The notes beneath the pieces are model-generated. The model searched no databases. It was given only the letters and a program-made list of their open reading frames with translations, and had not been told where the DNA came from. From NCBI GenBank assembly GCA_049644265.1, contig JBARRO010000048.1:2886-66885 (forward strand): a stretch of DNA of 64,000 bases, in the 5' to 3' direction. Both the position numbers and the translations under genes were made by a program. Position 1 is the first letter of the stretch. The number at the start of each line of letters is the position of its first letter. Shown piece after piece: positions 17,394-32,154 of this stretch. The stretch comes from Bacteroidota bacterium. Lineage in GTDB: Bacteria > Bacteroidota > Ignavibacteria > UBA10030.

Positions 17394-18317
17394 CTAGATC
17401 CGATCCGCCAGCATCAGGATCATCAGTGCCGGAAGATAAGCTAGTGACGCGAAAAACACCAGACGGGAAGTGGCATTCACGACGACAGGGTTGTCCTGCC
17501 TTGACGCTCTTGAAAGCAAAAAGGAGTACCAGGCAAAGCCGCCACTCACCAGGATCGCCCCGACGAAGTAGGTCATACCAGTGAGACCGGCCACTGTAAA
17601 GCCAACACTCAGTGGAATCAGAATTGCGCAGGAAACCAAAATGTGAAGACTCGTTCTTGAGGCCCGATCGGTATCAATCACCGTGAGCATTTTGTATCCT
17701 GCACGAGCGTAATCCTTCCGATACATCCATGCAAGCGATAAGAAATGCGGAATCTGCCAGGCGAACAGAAGTCCGAAGAAAATCCAACCTCCCAAGGTGA
17801 TCCTGTTGCTCGCTGCGGCGCACCCGATCAGCGTTGGCAACGCACCGGGGACAGCTCCCACGATTGTATTGAGCCAGGTGAGTCGCTTGAGCGGTGTGTA
17901 CACAAACAAGTAGAGGAGCAGGGTTGATTCTGCGATAATTGCCGCGAGCGGATTTGCAAACACCCAAAGTATTACAAACCCCGCTGTTGAAACAAGCCAG
18001 CCAAACACGAACACCTCCGGGGCACGAAGTCGCCCTGCAGGAAGCGGTCTTCGCTCTGTCCGTTTCATTTTCGCATCGTGGAAACGCTCGATATGCTGGT
18101 TCAGCGCTCCAGCCCCTCCCCCGACGAAGAGGGTTCCCAGAGCAGTCCAAAGCATGACAATTCCATCAACCGTCGGCCCGGAAGCCAGATAGAACGAGAA
18201 CACCGTGGTGAGAACCGAAAGTCCCGTAAGCTCCGGTTTCATCAGTTCTATGTAGTCCATGAGCCGTACGCCTTGCCGACGGACCGACATTTCGACCATC
18301 TCGAACTGAGGGATCAA
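17394..18317 (-). CDS. ctaB: Protohaem IX farnesyltransferase (haem O synthase)
   Basis: UbiA-superfamily polytopic protein with KRTERRPLPAGR and NxxxDxxxD-like motifs. Confidence 0.85.
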   Translation of the reverse strand: MIPQFEMVEMSVRRQGVRLMDYIELMKPELTGLSVLTTVFSFYLASGPTVDGIVMLWTALGTLFVGGGAGALNQHIERFHDAKMKRTERRPLPAGRLRAPEVFVFGWLVSTAGFVILWVFANPLAAIIAESTLLLYLFVYTPLKRLTWLNTIVGAVPGALPTLIGCAAASNRITLGGWIFFGLLFAWQIPHFLSLAWMYRKDYARAGYKMLTVIDTDRASRTSLHILVSCAILIPLSVGFTVAGLTGMTYFVGAILVSGGFAWYSFLLSRASRQDNPVVVNATSRLVFFASLAYLPALMILMLADRI

Positions 18318-19339
18318 GCAACGGCCTCCTTTCCATTCACCACAAGCTTCTCCGAAATCAATCGAACGGGCGCAATGCGATACAGATGCAGAGCAGACAG
18401 CACAACGGTAACCAGGAGTAACGCTCCCACGGTCTGGTGCGCCGTTGCAATTTCAACGGATGTATGAGTCAGTACCGTCAAAGCCCCGAGAGAGAACTGA
18501 AGAACAACCACCCCGATGAGCGCAAGACTGAGCGACCCGAACCTCCGTGAAATCCCCGATAATTTCCGAAGCTTGAAGGCACTGGCGATAACAAAGATCG
18601 ACGTCACAACTGCCCAGAAACGATGGAGCATATGAATGACGATTTGGCCCCTTTCAATTGCGCCATCCGCGGCGAGACGAAGATCTGAACGGATGAGCTG
18701 TTCGTTGTACTTCGCAAGAGACTCGGAGGATAAGGATGGAACCAGCTGTCCGTACGCGAGTGGAAAGTCCGGAACGGCAAGGCCGGAATCCGTGTGCCGC
18801 ATGACTGAACCGAGAATCAACTGGATATAGACAGCAACAACAGACATCGCCACAATCACCATCGTATTCCGGGGAATGGAGATCGATGCCGGAGAACGAG
18901 TTAGCCACCAACGGGAAGAGAACAGTGCAAGCGAAGCAACGAGGCAGAAGAAGGTTTGGGCAAGCGTTGCGTGACTTGCGGAGACTGCGGGTGGAAGAAG
19001 GAGGTAGACTGTTAATCCGCCCAGGAGGCCCTGCAGGATCACCGCGGCAAGCGATGCCACGGAAATCCATCGAACCCAGCGTCGCTTCTCAACCTTCATG
19101 ATCCAGAATGTCAGGATGACCGTAAGAAATCCAACAAACGATGCGATCATGCGGTGTCCGTGTTCGAAGAAGATACCTCCGACCATCGGGGGCATCACTT
19201 GTCCATACGACAACGGCCAATCCGGCACAGCGAGCCCGGATCCCGTGCTTGTGACCAATCCTCCGGCAACAAGCAAAAGGACGGTACAGAACGAGACAAA
19301 AACTGTATACCAGTGGAGCGCGCGCTTATATTCGTTCAT
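18314..19339 (-). CDS. ctaA: Haem A synthase (CtaA/COX15 family)
   Basis: Eight TM helices with paired His-containing motifs (FFEHGHRMIA ... HTDSGLAVPDFPL). Four-base overlap with ctaB. Confidence 0.7.
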   Translation of the reverse strand: MNEYKRALHWYTVFVSFCTVLLLVAGGLVTSTGSGLAVPDWPLSYGQVMPPMVGGIFFEHGHRMIASFVGFLTVILTFWIMKVEKRRWVRWISVASLAAVILQGLLGGLTVYLLLPPAVSASHATLAQTFFCLVASLALFSSRWWLTRSPASISIPRNTMVIVAMSVVAVYIQLILGSVMRHTDSGLAVPDFPLAYGQLVPSLSSESLAKYNEQLIRSDLRLAADGAIERGQIVIHMLHRFWAVVTSIFVIASAFKLRKLSGISRRFGSLSLALIGVVVLQFSLGALTVLTHTSVEIATAHQTVGALLLVTVVLSALHLYRIAPVRLISEKLVVNGKEAVA

Positions 19340-19343
19340 GAAG

Positions 19344-20309
19344 TCAATTCGATGGTGCAGGTTCGGGTGCCAGCATAGTTGCCTGTTGCTGCAGCCAGGC
19401 TTGATATTCTTCAGGAGTCTGGATCGTTACGAATCCCCGCATCCTGAAATGTCCCAGTCCGCAGAGCTGCGCGCAGGCGATTTCCGTCGGCGTGTCCGGC
19501 GCAACTACTACGGACGTGATGCCCGCCTGAAGAAGTTGTGGGACGATCTCCTCAGATATGCTTCCTCCCTTTGAAACGATGGGTGTTCCATCTTTTGCAT
19601 TGTAGTCCTCAACCGCACTTGTCGATGCAAGCACCGCTGGATAATTCCCCTGTTTAAGGGCCACGTGTTGAATCGACTGTATGCGGATCTGATCCGTCGT
19701 CATAGTGGGGATAAACCAGACTCGGATGACTTCACCCGGAATAGCATCCTGCTTCACGCGGAATAACGGAAGGTTGAAACTGTGGATAACATCCTTGCTC
19801 GACAGATGTATAACGACCGGTTTCTCCACAGGGAGGTTGAGCTGATTAATCGTTGTGATATCGTCCTTGGCATACGGGTCCGAGCGATCCAGGCCCAGAG
19901 GGTTGTCCGAGCTAACCAGGTTGATATCGGTCCGGCCGAACACGCCGTCTGCGCCGGGGTAATGGACATTCCATGCGAACTGTTCCGCCACAACGCGCAC
20001 GACGGTTGCGGTCTTCTCGTCGGGTATCTGATTCACACGCTTGGCCCAGAGAGGAAAGGCAAATCCGATGAGCAGGATGGCCTCGAAGATCGCCACTCCG
20101 ACTTCAAGATACGAAGAAAAATGACTTTGAAGGCCGTCATGATTTGCCGTCTGGTTCTTCGACCGTCGGAAACGGATGAGCACAAAGGCAAAGAAACTCC
20201 CCCATCCCACAAACAGAACGAGCATCAGCCAGTGAATGACAACAATCATGTTGTCAATTTCGGGCCCGTGGGCAGAAGCATCAATCGGTAAGCGCAAGAG
20301 ATCGTGCAT
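19344..20309 (-). CDS. coxB: Cytochrome c oxidase subunit II (no fused cytochrome c domain)
   Basis: Two N-terminal TM helices and a CuA site HSFNLPLFRVKQDAIPG...CAQLCGLGHFRM. No CxxCH motif. Confidence 0.85.
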   Translation of the reverse strand: MHDLLRLPIDASAHGPEIDNMIVVIHWLMLVLFVGWGSFFAFVLIRFRRSKNQTANHDGLQSHFSSYLEVGVAIFEAILLIGFAFPLWAKRVNQIPDEKTATVVRVVAEQFAWNVHYPGADGVFGRTDINLVSSDNPLGLDRSDPYAKDDITTINQLNLPVEKPVVIHLSSKDVIHSFNLPLFRVKQDAIPGEVIRVWFIPTMTTDQIRIQSIQHVALKQGNYPAVLASTSAVEDYNAKDGTPIVSKGGSISEEIVPQLLQAGITSVVVAPDTPTEIACAQLCGLGHFRMRGFVTIQTPEEYQAWLQQQATMLAPEPAPSN

Positions 20310-20328
20310 TGTGAAACTTTCTCCTTCG

Positions 20329-20580
20329 TTAATTCATGCTTGGATAATCGACAGAACCGTTCATGGTCAGCTTCATCCGCTTCCGGATCCTCAGAAACAC
20401 TGCGCTCAGAAGGCCCAGAACGCTTCCCGTGATCCCCAGAAGAACCAGAATTGCCGCGTTTACTCCCTCCGCCATCGCTGAATTCGTGTCGCCGTAACAA
20501 ACCGGGCACGCAGCAGTTCTCGACGGTAGCATGCTGAGTGCAACCAAGAATACTATTCCGATGATCATCGATCGCTTCAT
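20329..20580 (-). CDS. Small membrane protein with CPVC motif (hypothetical, oxidase-operon-embedded)
   Basis: Likely start MKRSMIIG. Signal/TM helix, CPVCYGD motif and a second TM helix. The ORF-track N-terminal extension is probably not translated. Confidence 0.35.
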   Translation of the reverse strand: MKRSMIIGIVFLVALSMLPSRTAACPVCYGDTNSAMAEGVNAAILVLLGITGSVLGLLSAVFLRIRKRMKLTMNGSVDYPSMN

Positions 20581-20596
20581 GGAGTTTTCCTCCTTC

Positions 20597-20797
20597 TCAC
20601 ATGGAACTGATATGCCGGAACTTCCTGAGAAATCGCCGGCCGTAGAGGACGAGCAGCAGACTGCACAAGAACGCGCCAACGGCGCCAGAGATCTCCACGG
20701 GACCACGGCCATCGTAGGTCAGGAGCCAGATGCCGAACCCGAATGTGCAGAGTGTCGCAATTCCGATAAAAAAGATGTGAAATCCTTTAAGAGACAT
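20597..20797 (-). CDS. Small two-TM membrane protein (hypothetical)
   Basis: 66 aa, two hydrophobic helices. Lies between the subunit IV and subunit II genes. Confidence 0.3.
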   Translation of the reverse strand: MSLKGFHIFFIGIATLCTFGFGIWLLTYDGRGPVEISGAVGAFLCSLLLVLYGRRFLRKFRHISSM

Positions 20798-21104
20798 GGC
20801 GGCCTATATTAATGTTGTCGTGCATGTGTCCCACGGGAAGCAGCATCAGCGCAAAGAAGAACACCACGGTCAGGATCAGGACGAAATAGATGAGCTTCTT
20901 TTCTGAAATGAGATGCATAAAATAACCGGCGACCAGCGATCCTTTGATGAGCGCGATCGTCAGGGCAACCAGCACAGCAGGAAGCGTTGAAAGGTGCAGG
21001 TATGACACGGAAACCGTCACCATCGTCAGTGCCATGAGCGACACAAAGACGATGATGTAGGTCCGGACGTGCTTTTTGATATCGACGGAATGTGCGTCAG
21101 ACAT
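20787..21104 (-). CDS. coxD: Cytochrome c oxidase subunit IV (prokaryotic CoxD type)
   Basis: 105 aa, three TM helices. N-terminus HVRTYIIVFVSLMALTMVTV matches the bacterial subunit IV family. Confidence 0.6.
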   Translation of the reverse strand: MSDAHSVDIKKHVRTYIIVFVSLMALTMVTVSVSYLHLSTLPAVLVALTIALIKGSLVAGYFMHLISEKKLIYFVLILTVVFFFALMLLPVGHMHDNINIGRHVS

Positions 21105-21113
21105 GATCGCTCC

Positions 21114-21704
21114 TTAGAGAAGATACAGGACGGGAAAAAGGAATATCCATACGAGGTCGACGAAATGCCAATAGAGACCGGCGATTTCCACTCGATTCGT
21201 AAATCGCTGGGGGTCCGTCTGCCACATCTTGCTTCCCACACCCCACAGATACGTGTTGACCACGATTCCCCCGATCACATGCAGACCATGGAGCCCGGTC
21301 AACGTAAAATAGATTGCATAGAAGTTGTCCGTGCTGGGAAAATGACCGAGTTCAAACTTGTGTCCGTACTCGAATCCCTTGATGACAAGAAACACGAACG
21401 CAAGAAGAATCGTAGCTCCCATGTACATCTTGAACTTCTTGAACTCCTTCATCATGAGCGAGGCCCAGGACATCACCATCGTTACGCTGGAGGTAATCAA
21501 CACCGCCGTGTTGATGGTTGCAAGGGGCACGTTCAGGAGTTCCCAGCCATGCGGCCAGGTTTCGGCGCCCGTTCGTAGCAACACAAGCGACGAGAAGAGC
21601 GCACCGAACAGCATGACTTCGGACGCGAGGAACAGCCAGATGCCCAGCTTTCCGTTAAAGAGCCCGGTATCCGACCGGGCGTCGACCGTATAGGGGATTT
21701 GCAT
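21114..21704 (-). CDS. coxC: Cytochrome c oxidase subunit III
   Basis: 196 aa. Conserved WFLASEVMLFG ... GLHGLHVIGG motifs. Confidence 0.85.
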   Translation of the reverse strand: MQIPYTVDARSDTGLFNGKLGIWLFLASEVMLFGALFSSLVLLRTGAETWPHGWELLNVPLATINTAVLITSSVTMVMSWASLMMKEFKKFKMYMGATILLAFVFLVIKGFEYGHKFELGHFPSTDNFYAIYFTLTGLHGLHVIGGIVVNTYLWGVGSKMWQTDPQRFTNRVEIAGLYWHFVDLVWIFLFPVLYLL

Positions 21705-21709
21705 GGCGC

Positions 21710-23473
21710 TTAAACCTTTGCGGATTCGTTTTGGGGAAGGTAATCTTTATGGTTCCCAGGCACACTGTATTCGTACGGGCCCCTGTATACTTCCGGAGGC
21801 GTAAGAAAATTCCCGTGCGGAGGAGGTGTCGGAGTAGCCCAGTCGAGCGTTGTTGCTTCCCACGGATTCTCAGAAACTTTTTTGCCTTTCTTGATGCTCC
21901 AGAAGAAATTGAAGATGAAAAACAGCTGGAACAATCCGAGCGTCCAGGCCGCGACCGACATGACCTCGTTCAGATACAGAACGCCCTGAGCGTGTGCATA
22001 CTGCTGACCGCCGTCGTAGAGCCGTCGCGAAACTCCCGCCAGACCCTGGATGAACATCGGCATGAAGATAAAGTTGATCGCCACAAGCGATCCCCAGAAG
22101 TGGATCTTCCCGAGCGTTTCGCTCATCCGCCGACCGGTGACCTTTGGATACCAGAAATACACGCCGGCGAACAGGGCGAAAATTGTACCCGGGGCGACCA
22201 CATAGTGGAAATGGCCGATGACGTAGTATGTGTCATGAAGATGAATATCGGTAGGAGCCAGGCCCAGGGGCAGGCCCGTCAGTCCTCCGATGCCGAACAT
22301 GGGAAGAAAAGCCAGGGCGAAGAGCATCGGCGTGTTGTAGCGGATCGACCCGCCCCACAAGGAAAGAATCAGAGCTGTCAGAATAATAACGGACGGGATG
22401 GAAATGATCATCGTTGTCGTCTGGAAGAACGTGCTGATCGTCGTTCCCATGCCCGTCAGGAACATGTGATGTGCCCAGACGATAAACGACATGAATCCGA
22501 GGAAGATCGTTGCATACACCAGGGATTTGTATCCCCACAACGGCTTTCGCGTGTTGTTGGCGATGATTTCCCCGACAATACCCATGGCGGGAAGGATAAG
22601 CACATAGACTTCCGGATGCGCCAGGAACCAGAAGAGATGCTGCCAGAGGATTGGGCTCCCTCCTCCACTCACCTGCAACGGCTGCCCGGAAACAACGAGG
22701 CCGCTCGGCAGGAAGAAGCTTGTTCCCGCAAGTCGATCCATAAGCTGCAGAATGCCCGCTGCTTCGAGCGGCGGAAATGCAAGAAGAAGAAGGAACGATG
22801 TGACGAGCTGTGCCCACACGAAGAACGGCAAACGCATGAACGACAGGCCCCGGGCGCGGAGCTGAACAATCGTCGTAATGAAATTCACCGACCCGAGAAG
22901 CGATGATGTGATCAGAAAGATCATACCAATGAGCCAGAACGTCTGGCCTTCGGTCGCGATCGTCGCAAGCGGTGCATACGAAGTCCACCCCGAGTTCGCT
23001 GCTCCACCTGGAACAAAAAAGCTCGCAAGCATGATCACGCCGCCCCAGAAGTAGCAGTGATAGCTGGCCATGTTCAGTTTGGGGAACGCCATGTCCGGCG
23101 CCCCAATCTGCAGGGGAACAACGTAGTTCCCGAATGCTCCCACTGCCAGCGGCACGACACCGAGGAACACCATAATTGTCCCGTGCATCGCACCAAGCTG
23201 GTTGTAGAACTCGGGCAGCATGATTCCACCCGGCGCATTCGCCTCGCCCAACCATTGCCCGATGAACGGAATAGGCTGGCCCGGATATGCGAGCTGCCAG
23301 CGCATGATCATCATCAGCGTGAATCCAAAGAGCAGGAACAGGAGCGCGGTGATGCCGTACTGCACTCCGATGACTTTGTGGTCCTGGGAGAACCAATAGG
23401 TACGCCAGAAGCCCTGATGGGCTTCGTGGACATGTCCGTGAACGCTATGCTCAGCGGTCGTTACGTGTTCCAA
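21710..23473 (-). CDS. coxA: Cytochrome c oxidase subunit I (haem-copper oxidase catalytic subunit)
   Basis: 587 aa with canonical GHPEVY, WAHHMF and HFHYV motifs. The + ORF 21731..22906 is an antisense shadow. Confidence 0.95.
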   Translation of the reverse strand: MEHVTTAEHSVHGHVHEAHQGFWRTYWFSQDHKVIGVQYGITALLFLLFGFTLMMIMRWQLAYPGQPIPFIGQWLGEANAPGGIMLPEFYNQLGAMHGTIMVFLGVVPLAVGAFGNYVVPLQIGAPDMAFPKLNMASYHCYFWGGVIMLASFFVPGGAANSGWTSYAPLATIATEGQTFWLIGMIFLITSSLLGSVNFITTIVQLRARGLSFMRLPFFVWAQLVTSFLLLLAFPPLEAAGILQLMDRLAGTSFFLPSGLVVSGQPLQVSGGGSPILWQHLFWFLAHPEVYVLILPAMGIVGEIIANNTRKPLWGYKSLVYATIFLGFMSFIVWAHHMFLTGMGTTISTFFQTTTMIISIPSVIILTALILSLWGGSIRYNTPMLFALAFLPMFGIGGLTGLPLGLAPTDIHLHDTYYVIGHFHYVVAPGTIFALFAGVYFWYPKVTGRRMSETLGKIHFWGSLVAINFIFMPMFIQGLAGVSRRLYDGGQQYAHAQGVLYLNEVMSVAAWTLGLFQLFFIFNFFWSIKKGKKVSENPWEATTLDWATPTPPPHGNFLTPPEVYRGPYEYSVPGNHKDYLPQNESAKV

Positions 23474-23535: not shown

Positions 23536-24228
23536 TTAGCCTTTGAACTTAAAGTCAAGCGTTGCCTTTCCGCTTGCGTCGACCTTCACTTTACCGGTCT
23601 GCACACCGTATTTTTCGTGCCAGGCCTCGACCGTGTACTCACCGGCAGGGAGTCCTTTCAGTGTGAAGGATCCATCATCGCCGGTTACGCCGTAGAACGG
23701 ATGACTGAAGACGCCGATGTACGCGCCCATCCAGCTGTGGACTTCACACTTGACCTTGAAGGTCTCGGGTTTGTCGAATTTCTTGGTCATCTTCATGTTC
23801 TTTATGGGCTGAGCCTGGTTGAACTGCGTGTTGAGCTTGGACAGGCTATGAACGTTGTGGAGCGTTGGGTCGCTGTTCTTGATTTCCAGCTCCTGGTTGA
23901 CCATAATGCCGAGAACATGGGGCTTGTAGACGCAACCCATCTGATCGAACAGAAGTTTGTCAGAAGGTGTCGCGAACGTTTTTCCACCGAGTCCATCCTT
24001 CACATACACCAGAACGTTCTTCAACGTTCCGTTCTTGTTGACAACAACCTCTTCACCGTACACGTCTGTTGCATGAGCTTTCTTGCAGACGGGGTCTGCA
24101 TTCATGAGAATGCGCGAAGCAGCAGGCGCCTTCCCTTCGAATGTTACTTTACCTGACACATCCCCCGCCACAAGTGAAGCGGTCAGGGCAAGTACCAGGA
24201 CCGCGACAGCCAACATGATCTTACGCAT
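23536..24228 (-). CDS. Secreted cupredoxin-like (type-1 copper) protein, putative electron carrier
   Basis: Signal peptide. Candidate copper ligands His (HNVHS) ... C-x2-H-x2-M (KCEVHSWM) spaced as in amicyanin/plastocyanin. Positioned between the cytochrome c gene and the oxidase genes. Confidence 0.4.
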   Translation of the reverse strand: MRKIMLAVAVLVLALTASLVAGDVSGKVTFEGKAPAASRILMNADPVCKKAHATDVYGEEVVVNKNGTLKNVLVYVKDGLGGKTFATPSDKLLFDQMGCVYKPHVLGIMVNQELEIKNSDPTLHNVHSLSKLNTQFNQAQPIKNMKMTKKFDKPETFKVKCEVHSWMGAYIGVFSHPFYGVTGDDGSFTLKGLPAGEYTVEAWHEKYGVQTGKVKVDASGKATLDFKFKG

Positions 24229-24281: not shown

Positions 24282-26936
24282 CTACTTTATGTCTGCGACC
24301 GCCGCGCTTCGACGGCCGAGACTCCAAACATAGTTCTGAAGAGCTTTGATCTGCTCATCCGAGCTTCCTCCATACACCGTCTCGTCAGGTCCTTTCCCTT
24401 CAAAGAAGAATGCGGGCATCCGCGTGCCGGGCTGCAGCTTTTGCGGATCGTTCAGCCATTGAATAATCCACTCGGGCTTCAACCGGGAGCTCGCCATGGC
24501 CAGATTCGGTGCGAGATCTGACGCCGTCTGCTCTCCTCCCAGCTTCACCGGGCCGGAGGGATGACATTTTCCGCACTGGTACGTATCAAAAAGCTTCTTG
24601 CCTGTTCCAACGTATTTGGGATCGGCGACCGTCGCTGCGTAATCCCTGATTTCAAGATCCTGTTTTGACATCCCGAGGAAGTATTTCTGGACTTTTGAGA
24701 CTTCTTCATCGGTCAGACTGAACGTCGGCATGCGTATTTGCAGCCACGGGCGAATCGTTGTCGGGTTCTTCAGGAAATTATGGAGCCAAGGCTCCTGCAC
24801 CTTTGCTCCCTGGCTTTCCGGAAGCAACGGCGGACCTATCGCAGGCTCCTCGTACTTTGCAAGAACGTACCCTCCGCGGTCTTCGAGCTGGTGACATTGC
24901 ATGCAATTGTACCGCATCGTTACGCGGCGTCCGGCTTCAATGTCCTGCTTTCGCTTGTCGTAGACTTGCTGATACTTCGGCAACGGAACATCCTTCGTCA
25001 TACTGATGAGGAAAAGCCTCAGTTCCCGGATTTCTTCGTCGTTGAACGTGAAGATCGGCATCTTCTGGGCAATACGTTCCGTCAGATATTGTCGCGGATT
25101 CCTTAATTTACCGTACACCCATCCTCTCCACGTATGTTGAACCCAGACCGCTCCGGTCGAATCTACCCGAAACTCTTCTGTCCCCACATGGCTGAGCTCC
25201 TTGGTGTCCCCAAAATCCATCTGCTCGGCCTTCTTTCGACCGAACTCCGAAAGCTCGACAGAAACTTTTCCCTCCTTCTCCGTCCCTTTGATGTCGTGAC
25301 AGCCGAAACAACCATATTCACGTATCAGCTTGTCCCCGCGCGCGATCAGGTCGGGATTGCCAAGGTCGAGCGTCTTCTTCTCAAACGTCCGGTCATCCTT
25401 CATGGTAAGAAGGTACGCGACGACGTCTCTTGCCTCCGAGTCGGAAAGCCTCAGACTCGGCATTCGAGTTTCCGGATTGTAATGACGCGGATTCTTGAGC
25501 CAATCAAAGAGCCAATCTCCGGTAACTTTGCTTCCCACGCGAGTCAGTTCCGGTGCGATGTCGTACGTTGTTCCACGGGAGTCGCGAACCGTCATGAAAT
25601 TCCCGGCGACATGGCATGCCTGGCATCCGACCGATTCAAAGATTCTTTTCCCCTGGGCCGCACTCCCGCCGACAAATGATCCGCGGGGTCTCGCAAATTC
25701 AAAGTTGGATGACTTGGAGAGATTCACGAGAAATGCCGTGACGGCCTCGGCCTGGTCGTCCGTGAATTTGAAATTCGGCATTCGCGTATGCGGATTGTAC
25801 TCTTTCGGATTCCGAACCCACCGGAAGATCCACTCCGGTTTCGCCTTGGCAGTCACGGAATTCAGCGGCGGGCCGATTTTCGCGAGGTCGGAATATCCTT
25901 TGATTTCATGACAGCCGTAGCAGCCTGAATCGATGATGAGTTGCTTGGCACGCGTGAACGGTTGAGCATACTTGAGGACAGATTCGTTATAATGACACGA
26001 ATTGCAGGTAGCGTAGACGTCGTTTCCTCTGAGAATCGGCGTCTCCCAGTAATGGTCCTCGTCGCCGTGAGCAAACCCAGTCGTGAGCGCAGGACCCTGA
26101 CCACGATGGCAGGGAGTGCAGCCGAATGTTTCCGGATTGTGCTTTGCCAGAAGTTCCGGCATCGGATGTTTGCGATAGGGCTCCGGTGCATCCGCCATAA
26201 CATCGTCCGCCCATCCGGCATGACAGGTCTGGCAGCGATCCACCCGGGCCTTGATTTCCTGAAACGGAGTCAACTCAAAATCATTCAGCACAAGCTGTCG
26301 TACAGCGATCGGCGCCGCTTTTGCCTTCTCGATCTTTGAGGCAAACCCGTTGGCCTTTGCGTACATAGCTTTCAGGTCCGCCTGGGCTTTCATAACTGCA
26401 TCTTTATACTTGTTGACGACGATGTCGAGCGTCGCAACCTTGCTTTCGAGGTCGGTCTTCTCGCCGAAATGCCTGGCGATGGCGGCATCGTGCTTGTCCA
26501 ATTCGACTTTCTCGCTCAACCCAGACTTCCCTTCCGAGAGGGCTTTCTTATACTGGAAATACGCCGCGTCAGATCGGCTTCGCGCAAACCTCCATTCGCG
26601 CGTCGCAATATCGAGGTCTTCCTGCAGTTTCTCCTTCGCCTTTACCGTCTTCATGTACTCGTCAGACTCCAGCCCCTTGTTTGCCTCCGCCAGCGCCTGA
26701 TTCAATTGCGCTGCCTGGGATGAATCGATTTCCTGCAACGCCGCCTGGCGCAGGGAGTCTGTTTTCTGAGCATACAGCTCGTAGTAGCGGGCCTGATATT
26801 CCTTCCACGGCCGTCGCACCTTCACTTCATCCCACACCGCCCATACCGTCCCGAGGAACAGCAATCCACTGAACGCAACGTAGAACAGCTCGTAGTTGCG
26901 GGATTCGACAGGTGTTTGTGATCGCTTATCGAACAT
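24282..26936 (-). CDS. Membrane-anchored octahaem c-type cytochrome with long N-terminal coiled coil
   Basis: 884 aa. One N-terminal TM helix, ~200 aa of heptad-rich Ala/Lys/Glu coiled coil, then eight CxxCH motifs (CQTCH, CTPCH, CNSCH, CYGCH, CQACH, CFGCH, CMQCH, CGKCH). Confidence 0.85.
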   Translation of the reverse strand: MFDKRSQTPVESRNYELFYVAFSGLLFLGTVWAVWDEVKVRRPWKEYQARYYELYAQKTDSLRQAALQEIDSSQAAQLNQALAEANKGLESDEYMKTVKAKEKLQEDLDIATREWRFARSRSDAAYFQYKKALSEGKSGLSEKVELDKHDAAIARHFGEKTDLESKVATLDIVVNKYKDAVMKAQADLKAMYAKANGFASKIEKAKAAPIAVRQLVLNDFELTPFQEIKARVDRCQTCHAGWADDVMADAPEPYRKHPMPELLAKHNPETFGCTPCHRGQGPALTTGFAHGDEDHYWETPILRGNDVYATCNSCHYNESVLKYAQPFTRAKQLIIDSGCYGCHEIKGYSDLAKIGPPLNSVTAKAKPEWIFRWVRNPKEYNPHTRMPNFKFTDDQAEAVTAFLVNLSKSSNFEFARPRGSFVGGSAAQGKRIFESVGCQACHVAGNFMTVRDSRGTTYDIAPELTRVGSKVTGDWLFDWLKNPRHYNPETRMPSLRLSDSEARDVVAYLLTMKDDRTFEKKTLDLGNPDLIARGDKLIREYGCFGCHDIKGTEKEGKVSVELSEFGRKKAEQMDFGDTKELSHVGTEEFRVDSTGAVWVQHTWRGWVYGKLRNPRQYLTERIAQKMPIFTFNDEEIRELRLFLISMTKDVPLPKYQQVYDKRKQDIEAGRRVTMRYNCMQCHQLEDRGGYVLAKYEEPAIGPPLLPESQGAKVQEPWLHNFLKNPTTIRPWLQIRMPTFSLTDEEVSKVQKYFLGMSKQDLEIRDYAATVADPKYVGTGKKLFDTYQCGKCHPSGPVKLGGEQTASDLAPNLAMASSRLKPEWIIQWLNDPQKLQPGTRMPAFFFEGKGPDETVYGGSSDEQIKALQNYVWSLGRRSAAVADIK

Positions 26937-26960
26937 TTATCTGTCCACAAGATTTGAAAG

Positions 26961-27386
26961 ATACCACGAAGGACACCAAGAACACTAAGGGTAAATACGC
27001 AGCCTTCAATGAACGATGTCTCATTCGTGTTATTCGTTGCATTCGAGAAATTCGTGTCTCAGTAAGTGACCTGATCTTCGTGCTCCCCGTGTCCTTCGTG
27101 GTTATACGTTAAACCAGGGGGTAACCCAGATATACTTAACCGGATTCGCACCGAACGTTTTTCAAACATCGAACTGTCCGCTGAGAATTGAAAGTCGTTT
27201 TACCACGAAGGGCACAAAGGACACTAAGTAATATGTGCTCTTGAAATATCTCTTTAGCTCTACTCGTTGCATTCGAGAATTCGTGTTTCAGTAAGTGACC
27301 TGATCTTCGTGCTCTTCGTGTCCTTCGTGGTTATATGTTAAACCAGGGGGTAACCCAGATATACTTAACCGGACTCGCACCGAACG
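26961..27386. repeat. Tandem duplication (~190-bp units, ~90% identical) containing elements bounded by 14-bp inverted repeats
   Basis: Unit 1 26961-27157 and unit 2 27200-27386. Each holds ACCACGAAGGACAC ... GTGTCCTTCGTGGT termini (26963-27102; 27202-27331) and internal ATTCG(T/A)N motifs at exact 9-bp spacing (27023, 27032, 27041, 27050). Unit 1 also duplicates the last ~55 coding bp of the subunit-IV-like cyt b gene. Confidence 0.8.
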
Positions 27387-28233
27387 CAAGCGGAGCCAGC
27401 CGCAAGATAATCTTGATGATCAACCCCACCATGGTGACGAACAAAAACGATACAATTGAATATCTCAGAAACCCGAGTTTTTTCATGAGCTCTGTATTCT
27501 GCTTCTTCAACCAATACAGCGGAATCGTGGAATAATAACCCAGCACCACGACGGCGCCGAAGATGAAAGCTACAGGATTGATTGAGGCATCCGGCATGCG
27601 GGTTGGGATCCCGAACATCTCCGAAAAATCGACGTTCGTCAGGACGGCAACGTAGTGCGGATCCCATCTTTCGCCGGGCAAAAAGAAGTTCCACCCAGGC
27701 CCCCGGAGAAACGTTCCGATGAAGATCAGGAATACCCAGAGGATGAGAAAACCGAACGCAAATGTGGTCACCGCAAACTTGCGTTCCTTAAACGTGTAGT
27801 AGCCGTTCCCTTTCTCGTTGATGTCGATGTACGGGATGGCCATGAGCCCGACAATAATGAGAGAAGGAAGCACTACGCCTGCAATCCACGGATCAAAATA
27901 CACGAGCATTTCCTGAAGTCCGAGAAAATACCAGGGCGCCTTCGACGGATTGGGCGTGAGCGCGCGGTTCGCAGGCTCTTCAAGCGGAGCGTCGAGCGTG
28001 ATGGACCAGATAACCATCACCGCCATCACGGCAATTGTCGCCAGAAACTCCACGCGCACGAGATACGGCCAGACCTGTACCTTGTCATCCTGCTTCGCCT
28101 CATCCGGCAGATCCTGACTGTCATTCTTGCGCGCCTTCTTCCAGGCATGGATGGTGAAGTAGACGACTGAAACCAACAGAAGAACAATCGGGATATTGTC
28201 CGGCTTCGTGATGATTTCGAGGAACTGGCTCAT
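27331..28233 (-). CDS. Cytochrome b C-terminal-domain subunit (subunit-IV/PetD-like, extended)
   Basis: 300 aa with multiple TM helices. PWYFLGLQEML motif corresponding to the conserved PEWY region of cyt b / b6f subunit IV. Confidence 0.7.
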   Translation of the reverse strand: MSQFLEIITKPDNIPIVLLLVSVVYFTIHAWKKARKNDSQDLPDEAKQDDKVQVWPYLVRVEFLATIAVMAVMVIWSITLDAPLEEPANRALTPNPSKAPWYFLGLQEMLVYFDPWIAGVVLPSLIIVGLMAIPYIDINEKGNGYYTFKERKFAVTTFAFGFLILWVFLIFIGTFLRGPGWNFFLPGERWDPHYVAVLTNVDFSEMFGIPTRMPDASINPVAFIFGAVVVLGYYSTIPLYWLKKQNTELMKKLGFLRYSIVSFLFVTMVGLIIKIILRLAPLAFGASPVKYIWVTPWFNI

Positions 28234-28404: not shown

Positions 28405-29175
28405 CTAAAACGTCTTCTTCCCCGTGTCCGGACCCGAAATACCTCCGTCCTTCCTTACACGCCAAAAATGGACCGCCATAAAGATTGTCGCAATGACCGG
28501 AAGAAAAATACAATGACCGACATAGAATCGAAGCAGCGTCGGAGGGCCGACTTCCGTTCCGCCGAGCAGCACGAACCGCACGTCGTTATCCGGGCGCATA
28601 CCGAGCTGTGCACCAAACGGACCTTCGTGTCCAAGCAGCGGAGTTGCACGCGCCATGTTCGTTCCAACCGTCACCGCCCATATCGACAACTGGTCCCACG
28701 GAAGGAGATATCCGGAAAAACTCAGAAGGAATGTCAACACGAGCAGGAGCACACCGACCACCCAGTTGAACTGGCGGGGTGGTTTGTACGATCCGGTGAG
28801 GAACACGCGGAACATGTGCAGCATAACCGTCAGGACCATCGCGTGCGCAGCCCATCGATGCATGTTGCGAATAAGTGGACCGAACGGGACGTCGTTCATC
28901 AGGTACTTCATGTCCTCATACGCGTACTGAGCAGTCGGCCTGTAGTAGAACATCAGGATGATGCCGGTGATCGTGAGGATAAGAAAGAGAAGAAACGTAA
29001 TACCACCCATTCCCCATGTGTATCCGATGTTCGTTGCATGGCGCGGAACTCTGACAGGATGCAGATGGAGAAAAACGTTGTCGACAATCTGGAGAGCGCG
29101 GTTCCGCTGCGTGTCCTGATAGGAATGCCGGAAGATCGATTTATAGACTTCAGTTTTCTTGAAGGATTCAAGCAT
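28405..29175 (-). CDS. Cytochrome b (b6-like, N-terminal haem-binding subunit)
   Basis: 256 aa, four TM helices with paired His ligands ([12 protein letters not shown]...; HFWRVRK). Confidence 0.85.
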
Positions 29176-29190
29176 CGAATAAATCTCCTC

Positions 29191-29886
29191 TTAACCTGTG
29201 TACGGCAGGAATGCACCCGGCTTGGTCCATTCCCCCTTTTCATACAAGAACTTGACGCTCCGGTCGATTTCAAGCTCACCGTCGTCCGCCAGGCCGATCG
29301 AAGCGCGTTCGAGGGGCCGCGGCGCAGGGCCTTCGAAATTCATTCCGGTCTTGTAAAATCCGCTTCCATGGCAGGGACACTTGAATTTGATATCAGAGGG
29401 AAGCCAGCGGGGTGTACAGCCAAGGTGTGTGCAAATGGAGATGAGGGCGTAGAAACCCTCTTTCTCGCGGATGATCCAGACCCGTTTTTCATCCTTAAAT
29501 TTTTCGCTGACCTCGCCGACCACAAAATCCTGGGGAAATCCTGCCTTGAACTTCGTGGAGGGTTCAAACAGAACGCGGGGAAACATGAAGCGCAGTGCGC
29601 CGACCGTGGAGGTGACAATGAATCCGAGAAAGCCGAGCCATCCGACAACGGAAAGCAGGTTCCGCCGACTCATGCGCCAGATGCCGGGGTCTTTTTCCGG
29701 AGCGCGATCCTGCTTGGCTTTTCGTACGGGGGAAGTTGTCAGCTGGGGAGCCGGTTTCGGCGGAGGTGCAGCCGCAGGCTGGTTGGCTGACGCGATATCG
29801 GGAACTTGATCTGACATTGACATTCCTTCGTGCTTTAAAGAGTGTCGAATTCGATGAGCGGCGCCATTCACGAACGGCGTCCGCAA
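29191..29886 (-). CDS. Rieske [2Fe-2S] iron-sulfur protein
   Basis: CTHLGC ... CPCHGS cluster-binding boxes and one TM anchor. Likely true start at an internal Met (MSMSDQV). Confidence 0.9.
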   Translation of the reverse strand: MRTPFVNGAAHRIRHSLKHEGMSMSDQVPDIASANQPAAAPPPKPAPQLTTSPVRKAKQDRAPEKDPGIWRMSRRNLLSVVGWLGFLGFIVTSTVGALRFMFPRVLFEPSTKFKAGFPQDFVVGEVSEKFKDEKRVWIIREKEGFYALISICTHLGCTPRWLPSDIKFKCPCHGSGFYKTGMNFEGPAPRPLERASIGLADDGELEIDRSVKFLYEKGEWTKPGAFLPYTG

Positions 29887-30396: not shown

Positions 30397-32154
30397 TTGA
30401 ACCTACAGGTCATTGTTGCTACTGTCATTAATGGGTGCCTTGCACACGGCTCGTCAAAATGCTATATTGACACGGTTCGAGGAGCCACGTATCACTTTTC
30501 GGAAACCTTCCCCATGACCTGGATCGACTACAAGGACCTCAACATCACCGATGGAGCATTTAGTCGGTTATTCCTCGACTATATCGGCGATTACCAAAAG
30601 GTTCAGAAATTCTACGGCGGCAACTTCCGGGATGAGAGCGCCTGGCGCTCCGTGCTGGAAAAAGTCTCAAATCGTGCGATGGATCGCGGGCCGATCGTCC
30701 AGATCCTCTCCAACCAGAACCGCAATTTCCAGTGCGGCATCAAGACTTTGGCGAATATCGACCTCCTGTTGAACGACAACACCGTTGCCGTCGTCACGGG
30801 ACAACAGGTCGGCCTCTTTACGGGTCCCCTCTATACCATCTACAAAACCCTGACGGCGATCAAACTCGCGGAGCAGATCAATGCAAAGTACCAGGACTAT
30901 CACGCTGTGCCGGTGTTCTGGCTGGAGGGCGAGGATCACGACTACGAAGAAGTGACCAGGATTAATTTGATTAATGGATCGAACGATCTGGTTCATATCG
31001 AATATCCTCTTGAAGCGAAGAGAGAAAAGAAGAACGTCGGGGCGGTCGGGAAAATTGAATTTACGGACTCGATCAACGACCTTTTCGGAGCGATCGATCA
31101 GACGCTCATCCAGACGGAGTTCAAGCCGAAGGTTTTGGACCTCTTCAAAACAGCGTATCAGAAGGGAATGACCTTCAACAAAGCCTTTGTGCATTTGATG
31201 AATGTTCTGGTTGAAGACTCGGGATTAATCTTTTTCGACCCGAACGATCCCGATGCCAAGAAACTCGTAGCTCCCATTTTCCAACGGGAGATCACGGATA
31301 CGCCGAAGATCGGACAGCTCGTGATCGACCAAAGTGTAGAGCTCGAAAACATTTACCATGCACAGGTGAAGCCCCGCTCGATCAACCTTTTCCTTTTTCA
31401 TGGAGGCGGACGGTATCCCATCGAGCCCCACCCAGACGGCTACTCACTAAAAGGAACCCGCCAGCATATCACGAAGGAAGAGATGAGCGGATTTCTTAAG
31501 AATTCGCCCGAGCTGTTCAGTCCGAATGTTGTGCTCAGACCGATATGTCAGGACTGGCTCCTCCCCACCGCCGCCTACGTAGCAGGACCCTCGGAAGTCG
31601 CTTATTTTGCGCAATTCCGGCCGTTGTACGAAGAATTCAACATACCCGAGCCAATCATTTATCCGCGGGCAAGTGTGACAATACTTGAAGAAAAGGTGGA
31701 GAAAGTGTTGACCCGGTTTGCATTGCAGGTCACACAGTTTTTTGAGGATGTGGAGTTTCTGAAGCAGAAGATCGCGGTGCAGATTTCGGATTTCAAAGTC
31801 GATGAACTCTTCGCCAGCACCAACGGCGCCATCGAAGAATCTTTGAACAGTTTGCGAAGCGGGATGCAGACCATCGATCCAACCCTTATGGGAGCGCTCG
31901 ACAACACACTCGGAAAGATCAAATCCCAGATCGATGTGTTGAAAGAGAAGACCCTTGCTGCGCAGAAGCGTCAGCACGAAGTCTACCTGCGTCAAATCGA
32001 CAAGGCAGCAATTTTCCTGTTTCCGAACTCAAACTTCCAGGAGCGCGAGCTGAACGTGCTGTATTTCTTGAATAAGTATGGATTGGAATTTGTGCGATGG
32101 CTGAATAATGAGATAGAGATTGATAAGTTTAAGCATCAGGTGGTGAAATTGTAG
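30397..32154 (+). CDS. bshC: Bacillithiol biosynthesis cysteine-adding enzyme BshC
   Basis: VVTGQQVGLFTGPLYTIYKTLTAIKLAEQ...VPVFWLEGEDHDYEEV closely matches the B. subtilis BshC/YllA signature as recalled. True start probably MTWIDYKDL (~30514), preceded by a TTGACA-N17-TATCAC promoter-like element. Confidence 0.85.
   Translation: MNLQVIVATVINGCLAHGSSKCYIDTVRGATYHFSETFPMTWIDYKDLNITDGAFSRLFLDYIGDYQKVQKFYGGNFRDESAWRSVLEKVSNRAMDRGPIVQILSNQNRNFQCGIKTLANIDLLLNDNTVAVVTGQQVGLFTGPLYTIYKTLTAIKLAEQINAKYQDYHAVPVFWLEGEDHDYEEVTRINLINGSNDLVHIEYPLEAKREKKNVGAVGKIEFTDSINDLFGAIDQTLIQTEFKPKVLDLFKTAYQKGMTFNKAFVHLMNVLVEDSGLIFFDPNDPDAKKLVAPIFQREITDTPKIGQLVIDQSVELENIYHAQVKPRSINLFLFHGGGRYPIEPHPDGYSLKGTRQHITKEEMSGFLKNSPELFSPNVVLRPICQDWLLPTAAYVAGPSEVAYFAQFRPLYEEFNIPEPIIYPRASVTILEEKVEKVLTRFALQVTQFFEDVEFLKQKIAVQISDFKVDELFASTNGAIEESLNSLRSGMQTIDPTLMGALDNTLGKIKSQIDVLKEKTLAAQKRQHEVYLRQIDKAAIFLFPNSNFQERELNVLYFLNKYGLEFVRWLNNEIEIDKFKHQVVKL

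What the first reader, a model, noticed from the sequence alone, without database searches (positions are those of the whole stretch)
24282..26936. Octahaem cytochrome c with N-terminal TM anchor and ~200-residue coiled-coil stalk
Domain order is a TM helix (residues ~15-35), then a long Ala/Glu/Lys heptad-rich region (SLRQAALQEIDSSQAAQLNQALAEANKGLESDEYMKTVKAKEKLQEDL...), then eight CxxCH motifs spread over ~600 aa. A coiled-coil stalk holding a multihaem module away from the membrane is an uncommon architecture. As the only c-type cytochrome in the locus, it may substitute for cytochrome c1 or a soluble carrier.
Basis: seen in the sequence. Interest (0 to 1): 0.5.

Follow-up and report, generated by a model that had tools for sequence, protein, structure and literature searches.

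The report
Octahaem cytochrome subunit of bc complex
This gene encodes the membrane-anchored eight-haem cytochrome c subunit of a b6f-like quinol-oxidising complex; it belongs to a widespread, already noticed but biochemically unstudied family, and its long helical region is a folded-back hairpin arm, not a stalk that lifts the haems off the membrane.

Summary
ORF 24282-26936 (-) encodes 884 aa with one N-terminal TM helix, a helical region of about 165 residues, and exactly eight CxxCH motifs: three with conserved His distal ligands, then five tandem class-I domains with a conserved Met.

The gene lies directly after Rieske, cytochrome b6 and an extended subunit IV. A cupredoxin gene and an aa3-type oxidase operon follow it.

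The architecture is not rare. There are more than 1,400 full-length relatives in Ignavibacteria, Kapaibacteria, Planctomycetota, Omnitrophota, Methylomirabilis, Binatia, Bdellovibrionota and delta-type MAGs. Wherever the flanking DNA is held, the Rieske/cyt b genes sit next to the gene. Lücker et al. 2013 already noted an "atypical octaheme cytochrome c" in such operons. A 2025 AlphaFold3 study of the Kuenenia complex describes long helices wrapping round the complex.

The "stalk" reading fails. AlphaFold2 models and fold searches give an antiparallel hairpin. A sister class of octahaem subunits has the same flanking motifs only about 25 residues apart. The helical region is therefore an insertion of about 150 residues whose two ends must lie close together.

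The most likely role is the cytochrome c1/f equivalent: an electron wire from the Rieske cluster to the cupredoxin and the oxidase. This rests on gene order and motifs only; nothing has been tested biochemically. It is a new member of a known kind, of moderate interest.

The parts
24282..26936 (-). Octahaem cytochrome c gene (884 aa), class L (with the helical insertion)
26814..26891 (-). N-terminal signal-anchor TM helix (residues 16-41)
   Evidence: Hydropathy; helix 16-41 in the models. The N-in/C-out orientation is inferred from the need for periplasmic haem attachment.
26793..26831 (-). Conserved juxtamembrane motif DE..RRPWKxYQ (residues 36-48). W44 is invariant in 64 diverse relatives, and the motif is also present in class S.
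26316..26792 (-). Helical hairpin insertion (residues 49-207): helices 44-68, 72-88, 92-134, turn 135-139, helices 140-191, 193-207. Each arm is about 9-10 nm long.
   Evidence: pLDDT 95-98; hairpin analogues only; absent in class S
26541..26606 (-). Conserved patch just before the hairpin turn (residues 111-132, ATREWRFARSRSDAAYFQYKKA; family consensus F.KS..DE..Y.Y..A)
26235..26315 (-). Pre-haem anchor: two beta strands and the motif I.Q214.V ... VDR (residues 208-234). Q214 is invariant.
25977..26234 (-). Trihaem module (CxxCH at 235, 273, 311) with conserved candidate distal histidines H257, H266 (invariant) and H290 (nearly invariant); c7/c3-like
24309..25964 (-). Five tandem paralogous class-I cytochrome c domains (CxxCH at 339, 438, 543, 678, 788), each with a distal Met in an (R/K)MP motif (M386, M492, M626, M736, M840)
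   Evidence: SoxX, c1, CcoO, caa3 c-domain analogues
29191..29886 (-). Rieske [2Fe-2S] subunit (CTHLGC...CPCH; twin-arginine motif SRRNLL)
28405..29175 (-). Cytochrome b6-type subunit (four-helix N-terminal half of cyt b)
27331..28233 (-). Extended subunit IV-like protein (300 aa; matches cyt b C-terminal/PetD and ExtQ; Qo motif APWY)
23536..24228 (-). Secreted cupredoxin fused to a CarboxypepD_reg beta-sandwich. Type-1 copper ligand set H124, C161, H164, M167 (C-x2-H-x2-M). Conserved partner gene.
17394..23473 (-). Haem-copper oxidase block: COX1 21710-23473, COX3 21114-21704, COX4 20787-21104, COX2 with a CuA-type Cys/His/Met loop 19344-20309, CtaA 18314-19339, CtaB 17394-18317

Best explanation
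The protein is the c-type cytochrome subunit of a b6f-like Rieske/cytochrome b quinol oxidoreductase, that is, the functional counterpart of cytochrome c1 or f. An N-terminal signal-anchor helix ties it to the membrane core. Right after the membrane, a conserved juxtamembrane motif and a conserved pre-haem motif place a trihaem module with conserved candidate distal histidines near the Rieske head. Five tandem class-I domains with conserved candidate distal methionines then extend the chain into the periplasm as an electron wire. Electrons most likely leave to the cupredoxin encoded immediately downstream and/or to the CuA centre of the aa3-type oxidase encoded in the same gene string. This gives a bc-oxidase chain without a soluble cytochrome c. 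The helical segment of about 160 residues is an antiparallel hairpin arm inserted between the two membrane-proximal motifs. It most likely acts as a structural clamp or docking strut on the periplasmic face of the complex, not as a spacer. Shown here: the sequence features, the gene order, the family distribution, the predicted hairpin and the insertion relationship. Inferred: complex membership, direction of electron flow, haem ligation and potentials, and the role of the hairpin.
Against: No biochemical or structural data exist for any member found here; the PDB sequence search hits only single class-I domains. The trihaem part is modelled with low confidence because the models contain no haems. 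Bis-His c7-like haems are often low-potential, which sits awkwardly with accepting electrons from a Rieske cluster. The Planctomycetales and Omnitrophica loci lack both the cupredoxin and the oxidase genes, so the exit route is not universal. Homology to Kustd1485 itself could not be tested. The lengths of the two hairpin halves, measured from the conserved mid-motif, do not co-vary (r = -0.32); this gives no independent support for a simple symmetric hairpin.
Confidence: 0.7

Rival explanations
1. One reading: a coiled-coil stalk holds the multihaem module well away from the membrane, for example to reach distant periplasmic or outer-membrane partners.
For: A long, charged, helical region lies between the TM helix and the first haem. 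The region matches no known globular domain.
Against: The models fold it back at residues 135-139, and all structural analogues are antiparallel hairpins. Class S relatives keep the same flanking motifs about 25 residues apart and sit in the same operon type, so the ends of the insertion must be adjacent. A haem acceptor 10 nm or more from the membrane could not be reduced by the Rieske head (established bc1/b6f mechanism).
Confidence: 0.06
2. The protein works as an electron wire as in the best explanation, but the hairpin is a docking or bridging element for another partner and not a clamp on its own complex. Candidates are the oxidase in a supercomplex, the cupredoxin/beta-sandwich protein, the second protomer of the dimer, or the cell wall or outer membrane in the manner of membrane-fusion-protein hairpins.
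For: The most conserved patch of the hairpin (residues 111-132) lies on one helix just before the turn, as expected for a distal interaction surface. The distance from W44 to the first haem Cys is held at 181-232 residues across diverse lineages. EmrA, HlyD and LipC hairpins are among the closest analogues, though not significantly. The bc and oxidase genes are fused into one string in several phyla.
Against: Class L proteins occur in Planctomycetales and Omnitrophica loci without oxidase or cupredoxin genes. The structural matches are non-significant (all E > 0.01).
Confidence: 0.17
3. The octahaem protein is a catalytic enzyme of the nitrite, hydroxylamine or tetrathionate reductase type that uses the Rieske/cyt b complex as its quinol-oxidising module.
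For: It has eight haems, like HAO, ONR and OTR. In Kuenenia, related complexes have been proposed to drive N-oxide chemistry (PMC12954380).
Against: No Pfam or NCBIfam model whose name indicates NrfA, HAO or OTR appears among the hits. There is no CxxCK or other variant motif. Every haem has a conserved candidate sixth ligand, three His and five Met. Five of the eight haems sit in ordinary class-I carrier domains. The operon partner here is an oxygen reductase.
Confidence: 0.04

Closest known systems
'Atypical octaheme cytochrome c' of the bc-like operons of Nitrospina gracilis, Ca. Kuenenia stuttgartiensis (Kustd1485) and Ca. Methylomirabilis oxyfera (PMC3578206; PMC12954380)
   Same: Same operon type: Rieske, split cytochrome b, octahaem c. 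The M. oxyfera protein (P0362, 882 aa) aligns over 98% of the query at 34% identity and has the same five-gene context. Kustd1485 is described as large, TM-anchored and carrying long alpha-helices.
   Different: The Kuenenia complex also carries an NAD(P) oxidoreductase subunit and haem cn. This cyt b has no CxGG motif, and no such oxidoreductase gene is present in the operon. Here the operon continues into a cupredoxin and an aa3-type oxidase. Direct homology to Kustd1485 and to the Nitrospina protein was not tested.
Class S octahaem subunits (for example P0179, 715 aa; L013 Acidobacteriaceae)
   Same: Eight CxxCH motifs with the same order of modules. Same juxtamembrane and pre-haem motifs. 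Same partners: Rieske, cyt b, subunit IV and the cupredoxin/beta-sandwich protein.
   Different: They lack the helical insertion of about 150 residues; the first CxxCH is at residues 65-106, against 217-276 in class L.
Actinobacterial dihaem cytochrome cc (QcrC) of the bcc-aa3 supercomplex
   Same: A membrane-anchored multi-domain class-I cytochrome c that replaces c1 plus a soluble carrier. Encoded with an aa3 oxidase. Weak NCBIfam similarity (NF050122, 58 bits).
   Different: Two haems, not eight; no trihaem module and no hairpin. The score is far below the family cut-off of 200.
Cytochrome c1 / cytochrome f
   Different: c1 and f are monohaem with a C-terminal anchor (general knowledge). 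This protein has eight haems and an N-terminal anchor, and neither family appears among the Pfam hits.
Geobacter ExtS / ExtQ (c-type cytochrome lipoprotein and b-type membrane protein of the ext cluster)
   Same: Residues 265-508 match ExtS (E = 8.7e-22), and the subunit IV-like neighbour matches ExtQ (E = 9e-17). This is a smaller cytochrome c attached to a related b-type membrane module.
   Different: Both scores are below the family cut-offs. ExtS is a 262-residue lipoprotein without the TM helix, the hairpin or eight haems.
Alpha-helical hairpins of periplasmic adaptor proteins (EmrA, HlyD, LipC), PspA and colicin E3
   Same: A long antiparallel two-helix coiled coil. These are the best structural analogues of residues 44-207.
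   Different: No sequence relationship and no significant structural E-value. The flanking domains are unrelated.

Membership tests
Octahaem cytochrome c subunit of b6f-like Rieske/cyt b complexes (Nitrospina / Kuenenia / M. oxyfera type) | Eight CxxCH haem-binding motifs | tested here: met
   Exactly eight motifs; all are invariant in 64 relatives.
Octahaem cytochrome c subunit of b6f-like Rieske/cyt b complexes (Nitrospina / Kuenenia / M. oxyfera type) | Encoded next to Rieske, cyt b6-type and subunit IV-type genes | tested here: met
   True in the window. Of 19 related loci, 17 hold all three genes; in the other two the contig is cut or only cyt b and subunit IV are on record.
Octahaem cytochrome c subunit of b6f-like Rieske/cyt b complexes (Nitrospina / Kuenenia / M. 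oxyfera type) | Full-length sequence homology to a named member | tested here: met
   Ca. Methylomirabilis oxygeniifera P0362: 34% identity over 98% of the query, 1075 bits against the family profile.
Octahaem cytochrome c subunit of b6f-like Rieske/cyt b complexes (Nitrospina / Kuenenia / M. oxyfera type) | Homology to Kustd1485 and to the Nitrospina gracilis octahaem protein themselves | not testable with these tools
   These sequences could not be retrieved. The link rests on the statement in PMC3578206 that the three are similar.
Octahaem cytochrome c subunit of b6f-like Rieske/cyt b complexes (Nitrospina / Kuenenia / M. oxyfera type) | Physical membership of the Rieske/cyt b complex | not testable with these tools
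   Requires purification, complexome profiling or multimer modelling.
Cytochrome c1 / cytochrome f | Monohaem protein with c1 or f fold and a C-terminal TM anchor | tested here: not met
   Eight haems and an N-terminal anchor; no c1 or f family among the Pfam hits.
Catalytic octahaem enzymes (HAO, ONR, OTR) and NrfA | Family profile match, plus a catalytic haem with unusual ligation (CxxCK, a Lys ligand, or an open sixth site) | tested here: not met
   No model with such a name among the Pfam or NCBIfam hits. No variant motif. Conserved candidate sixth ligands (His or Met) for all eight haems.
Actinobacterial QcrC (dihaem cytochrome cc) | NCBIfam NF050122 at or above its cut-off of 200 bits | tested here: not met
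   58 bits.
Extended coiled-coil stalk (single rod or parallel dimer that spaces a domain from the membrane) | The chain does not fold back; the N- and C-ends of the helical region are far apart | tested here: not met
   Turn at residues 135-139 and hairpin analogues only. The flanking motifs are about 25 residues apart in class S. Coordinates of the models could not be inspected directly.
Cupredoxin (type-1 copper protein), for the downstream gene 23536-24228 | His ... Cys-x2-His-x2-Met ligand set, and profile similarity to blue-copper proteins | tested here: met
   H124, C161, H164 and M167 are invariant in 5 homologues. The profile hits 5fc9 (E = 2.5e-8) and amicyanin (about 1e-6). Copper binding itself was not tested.

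The most novel reading that the evidence does not exclude
The five-gene module (Rieske, cyt b6, extended subunit IV, hairpin-bearing octahaem cytochrome c, and cupredoxin fused to a beta-sandwich) may define a distinct, widespread and structurally unsolved class of respiratory complex III. In this reading the 10-nm hairpin is a dedicated docking strut. It would either lock the bc dimer to the aa3 oxidase or the cupredoxin in an obligate supercomplex, or brace the complex against the cell wall. The eight-haem chain would act as an electron reservoir, not only as a simple wire.
Probability: 0.15. Interest if true: 0.65.

Novelty: new member of a known kind. Interest (0 to 1): 0.38.

Why it matters
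The cytochrome c subunit is the least conserved part of Rieske/cyt b complexes. This octahaem family is one of the largest versions that has never been purified or solved. It occurs in Ignavibacteria, NC10 methanotrophs, Binatia and Planctomycetota, and is reported in nitrite oxidisers and anammox bacteria.

Three points from this work make the system a well-defined target for cryo-EM and redox studies:
- The long helices are a discrete insertion, so there is a class with the hairpin and a class without it.
- A cupredoxin gene travels with the cytochrome gene.
- The module is often fused to an aa3 oxidase operon.

For this window the practical result is an annotation: a complete quinol-to-oxygen chain encoded in one gene string.

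Tried and rejected
1. A homologue search with the N-terminal 234 residues alone returned only fragments and said nothing about distribution.
2. I tested whether the two halves of the helical region co-vary in length around the conserved mid-motif, which would have supported a hairpin independently. They do not (r = -0.32). Extra residues in the Planctomycetes and Omnitrophica proteins lie in the second half, before the I.Q.V motif.
4. Cluster look-ups for 20 distant representatives gave few names: Chlorobiota/Kapaibacterium, Bdellovibrionota and Planctomycetota, but no Brocadiales.
5. Fold searches with both models found no significant PDB match. They therefore support 'hairpin-like' but not membership of any structural family.
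6. No standard coiled-coil predictor was available. A home-made heptad score gave only z = 2.2.
7. An Rfam scan of the unusual intergenic repeat found nothing.
8. A structure prediction for the cupredoxin was not attempted, because its homologues were not admissible for the prediction tool.
Full report
**Observation**

The ORF at 24282-26936 on the minus strand starts with ATG and encodes 884 residues. It has exactly eight CxxCH motifs, at residues 235, 273, 311, 339, 438, 543, 678 and 788. All 16 cysteines of the protein lie in these motifs. About 0.006 motifs would be expected from composition, and there is no CxxCK or longer variant.

The only hydrophobic stretch is at about residues 15-35. 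Two AlphaFold2 models show it as helix 16-41. After it come helices 44-68, 72-88 and 92-134, a turn at 135-139, and helices 140-191 and 193-207. In the model built from 69 diverse sequences, pLDDT is 95-98 for residues 51-205.

Heptad regularity is moderate overall (z = 2.2 against shuffles) and strong only for residues 162-205. The returning helix has hydrophobic residues at 15 of 19 a/d positions, the outgoing helix at 11 of 18. The helical part is about 165 residues, not 200.

**Surroundings**

On the same strand the gene is preceded by three genes:
- a Rieske protein (29191-29886; CTHLGC...CPCH; twin-arginine motif);
- a four-helix cytochrome b6-type protein (28405-29175; no CxGG motif for haem cn);
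- a 300-residue subunit IV-like protein (27331-28233; Qo motif APWY).

It is followed by:
- a 230-residue secreted protein (23536-24228);
- COX1, COX3, COX4, two small membrane ORFs, and COX2 with a CuA-type loop (CAQLCGLGHFRM);
- CtaA and CtaB.

It is the only multi-CxxCH ORF in the window. The two other single CxxCH matches are a thymidine kinase and an ORF with no family match. The protein is 100% identical to a protein of a 'Bacteroidota bacterium' MAG, and its close relatives are labelled Ignavibacteria.

**Haem modules**

The first three motifs have three conserved candidate distal histidines. H257 and H266 are invariant and H290 is nearly invariant in 64 relatives of 28-47% identity. 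This part matches the cytochrome c7, c3 and MtrC-domain profiles.

The last five motifs sit in five tandem class-I domains. These are paralogues of one another at 24-32% identity. Each carries a Met in an (R/K)MP motif. M386, M492, M626 and M736 are invariant in the diverse set, and M840 in the closer set.

**Distribution and literature**

More than 1,400 clusters at 90% identity are full-length relatives. A search of 50%-identity representatives with residues 1-320 gave 1,042 hits at E ≤ 1e-3 and 395 at E ≤ 1e-10.

Named or located members come from these lineages:
- Ignavibacteria
- Kapaibacterium/Chlorobiota
- Planctomycetota
- Omnitrophica
- Ca. Methylomirabilis oxygeniifera (34% identity over 98% of the query)
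- Ca. Binatia
- Bdellovibrionota
- MAGs labelled Delta- and Alphaproteobacteria

Of the 19 loci with a strong homologue, 17 hold Rieske, cyt b and subunit IV directly adjacent. In the other two the contig is cut, or only cyt b and subunit IV are on record.

Lücker et al. 2013 (PMC3578206) described this operon type with 'an atypical octaheme cytochrome c' in Nitrospina gracilis. They stated that the same operon structure with a similar octahaem protein occurs in Kuenenia and M. oxyfera. A 2025 study (PMC12954380) modelled the Kuenenia Kustd1480-1485 complex with AlphaFold3. [quoted passage not shown] I could not retrieve Kustd1485 to test homology directly. The link runs through the M. oxyfera protein and the statement of similarity in the literature.

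**Stalk or hairpin**

Three lines of evidence argue against a stalk.

1. Both models turn the chain back at residues 135-139.
3. The representatives fall into two classes of eight-haem proteins.
 - Class L, like this one, has the first CxxCH at residues 217-276 and is 830-1130 residues long.
 - Class S has the first CxxCH at residues 65-106 and is 640-820 residues long.
 - Class S sits in the same kind of operon: L034 has cupredoxin protein, octahaem, Rieske, cyt b and subunit IV; the Acidobacteriaceae locus L013 has subunit IV upstream.
 - Class S keeps both the juxtamembrane motif (DE..TRRPWKxxQ) and the pre-haem motif (IRQVV...DRCxxCH), with a median of 25 residues between the Trp and the Gln, against 176 in class L.

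The helical region is therefore an insertion of about 150 residues between two anchors that are neighbours in the shorter proteins. Its ends must lie close together, and the trihaem module stays near the membrane. That is where an acceptor of the Rieske electron has to be.

Each hairpin arm is about 63-68 residues, roughly 9-10 nm. The distance from W44 to the first haem cysteine is held at 181-232 residues in 68 diverse members. The most conserved patch of the insertion (residues 111-132, consensus F.KS..DE..Y.Y..A) lies on the outgoing helix just before the turn. This pattern suggests a defined interaction surface.

I also tested whether the two halves co-vary in length around that motif. 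They do not (r = -0.32), so this gives no independent support.

**The downstream partner**

The 230-residue protein has a signal peptide, a cupredoxin domain and a C-terminal CarboxypepD_reg beta-sandwich. A profile of five homologues hits a blue type-1 copper domain protein (5fc9, E = 2.5e-8), amicyanins (about 1e-6), plastocyanins and pseudoazurins. H124, C161, H164 and M167 are invariant, in the spacing C-x2-H-x2-M, and so is a Cys48/Cys99 pair.

This gene follows the octahaem gene in Ignavibacteria, Kapaibacterium, M. oxyfera, Binatia and a delta-type MAG, and precedes it in class S. It is absent from the Planctomycetales and Omnitrophica loci. It is the better candidate for the mobile or terminal carrier.

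**Mechanism proposed**

Menaquinol would be oxidised at the Qo site of the b6/subunit IV core. One electron would pass through the Rieske cluster to the membrane-proximal haems of the octahaem subunit. It would then run along the haem chain to the cupredoxin and/or CuA of the aa3-type oxidase.

The hairpin most likely clamps or braces the periplasmic face, or docks a partner. It does not act as a spacer.

Shown here: the motifs, the conservation, the gene order, the predicted hairpin and the insertion relationship. Inferred: complex membership, ligation, redox potentials, the direction and exit of electrons, and the role of the hairpin.

One weak point is that bis-His c7-like haems are often low-potential. 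Another is that the exit partners are not universal across the family.

**Verdict**

The feature is real and the description accurate. The 'stalk' and 'uncommon' parts of the interpretation are not supported. The 'c1 substitute' part is supported by gene order.

The protein is a new member of a known, widespread but biochemically uncharacterised family. Three points did not turn up in the papers I read:
- the split into a class with and a class without the hairpin;
- the companion cupredoxin gene;
- the frequent fusion of the module to an aa3 oxidase operon.

They raise the interest from low to moderate.

Noticed in passing
window 26937-27390 (between the subunit IV gene and the octahaem gene): A tandem duplication of about 229 nt. 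Positions 27278-27386, which include the last ~55 nt and the stop codon of the subunit IV gene, are 95% identical to 27049-27157. Each unit carries 27-nt inverted-repeat arms (ACCACGAAGGACAC...), four arms in all, found nowhere else in the window or in the related loci. As RNA the region folds with z = -4.2. No Rfam family matches. Relatives have only about 20-50 nt here, against 394 nt in the window. It could be a recent duplication, a processing or attenuation hairpin, or an assembly artefact.
   Followed up: partly
window 23536-24228 (-): A secreted cupredoxin with a complete type-1 copper ligand set (H124, C161, H164, M167), fused to a CarboxypepD_reg beta-sandwich. The gene travels with the octahaem gene across several phyla. 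A second paralogue lies next to SoxYZ/SoxA and CCP/MauG genes in M. oxyfera (L031 13254-13964).
   Followed up: yes
window 19344-20309 (-): COX2 has an insertion of about 65 residues between the conserved HSF histidine region and the CuA loop. The loop reads CAQLCGLGHFRM, with Gln where the usual CxExC has Glu. The Pfam COX2 match covers only residues 150-201. The insertion appears to be kept in close relatives, because COX2 aligns over its full length in L001, L004 and L007.
   Followed up: no
window 27331-28233 (-): The subunit IV-like protein is 300 residues with about six hydrophobic segments by eye, against three helices in canonical b6f subunit IV. Its Qo motif is APWY. It also matches Geobacter ExtQ (E = 9e-17, below the cut-off). 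PMC12954380 reports five-helix subunit IV proteins in the Kuenenia complexes.
   Followed up: no
P0189 (1259 aa, metagenome protein): A relative with the class L N-terminus (TM helix, helical region, first CxxCH at residue 252) but 22 CxxCH motifs. The hairpin-bearing anchor can evidently carry a much larger multihaem chain. P0210, P0256 and P0270 (class S) have ten motifs.
   Followed up: no
window 20329-20797 (-): Two small overlapping membrane ORFs (66 aa, and 127 aa with a possible internal start) lie between COX4 and COX2 and match no Pfam family. The second has a CPVC motif after a signal-like helix, which could be a small copper- or redox-related accessory protein.
   Followed up: no
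window 29191-29886 (-): The Rieske ORF as listed starts at TTG and has an N-terminal extension of about 60 residues rich in Pro, Ala and Lys before the twin-arginine motif (SRRNLL). The true start may be the Met at residue 22 or 24.
   Followed up: no
window 30397-32154 (+): BshC, the bacillithiol cysteine-adding enzyme (TIGR03998, E = 3e-152), lies next to the respiratory operon. By general knowledge this fits a Bacteroidota/Chlorobi-group organism that uses bacillithiol.
   Followed up: no
L010 5681-7608 (Ca. Kapaibacterium): Two tandem copies of the cupredoxin/beta-sandwich gene follow the octahaem gene, before COX2 and COX1.
   Followed up: no
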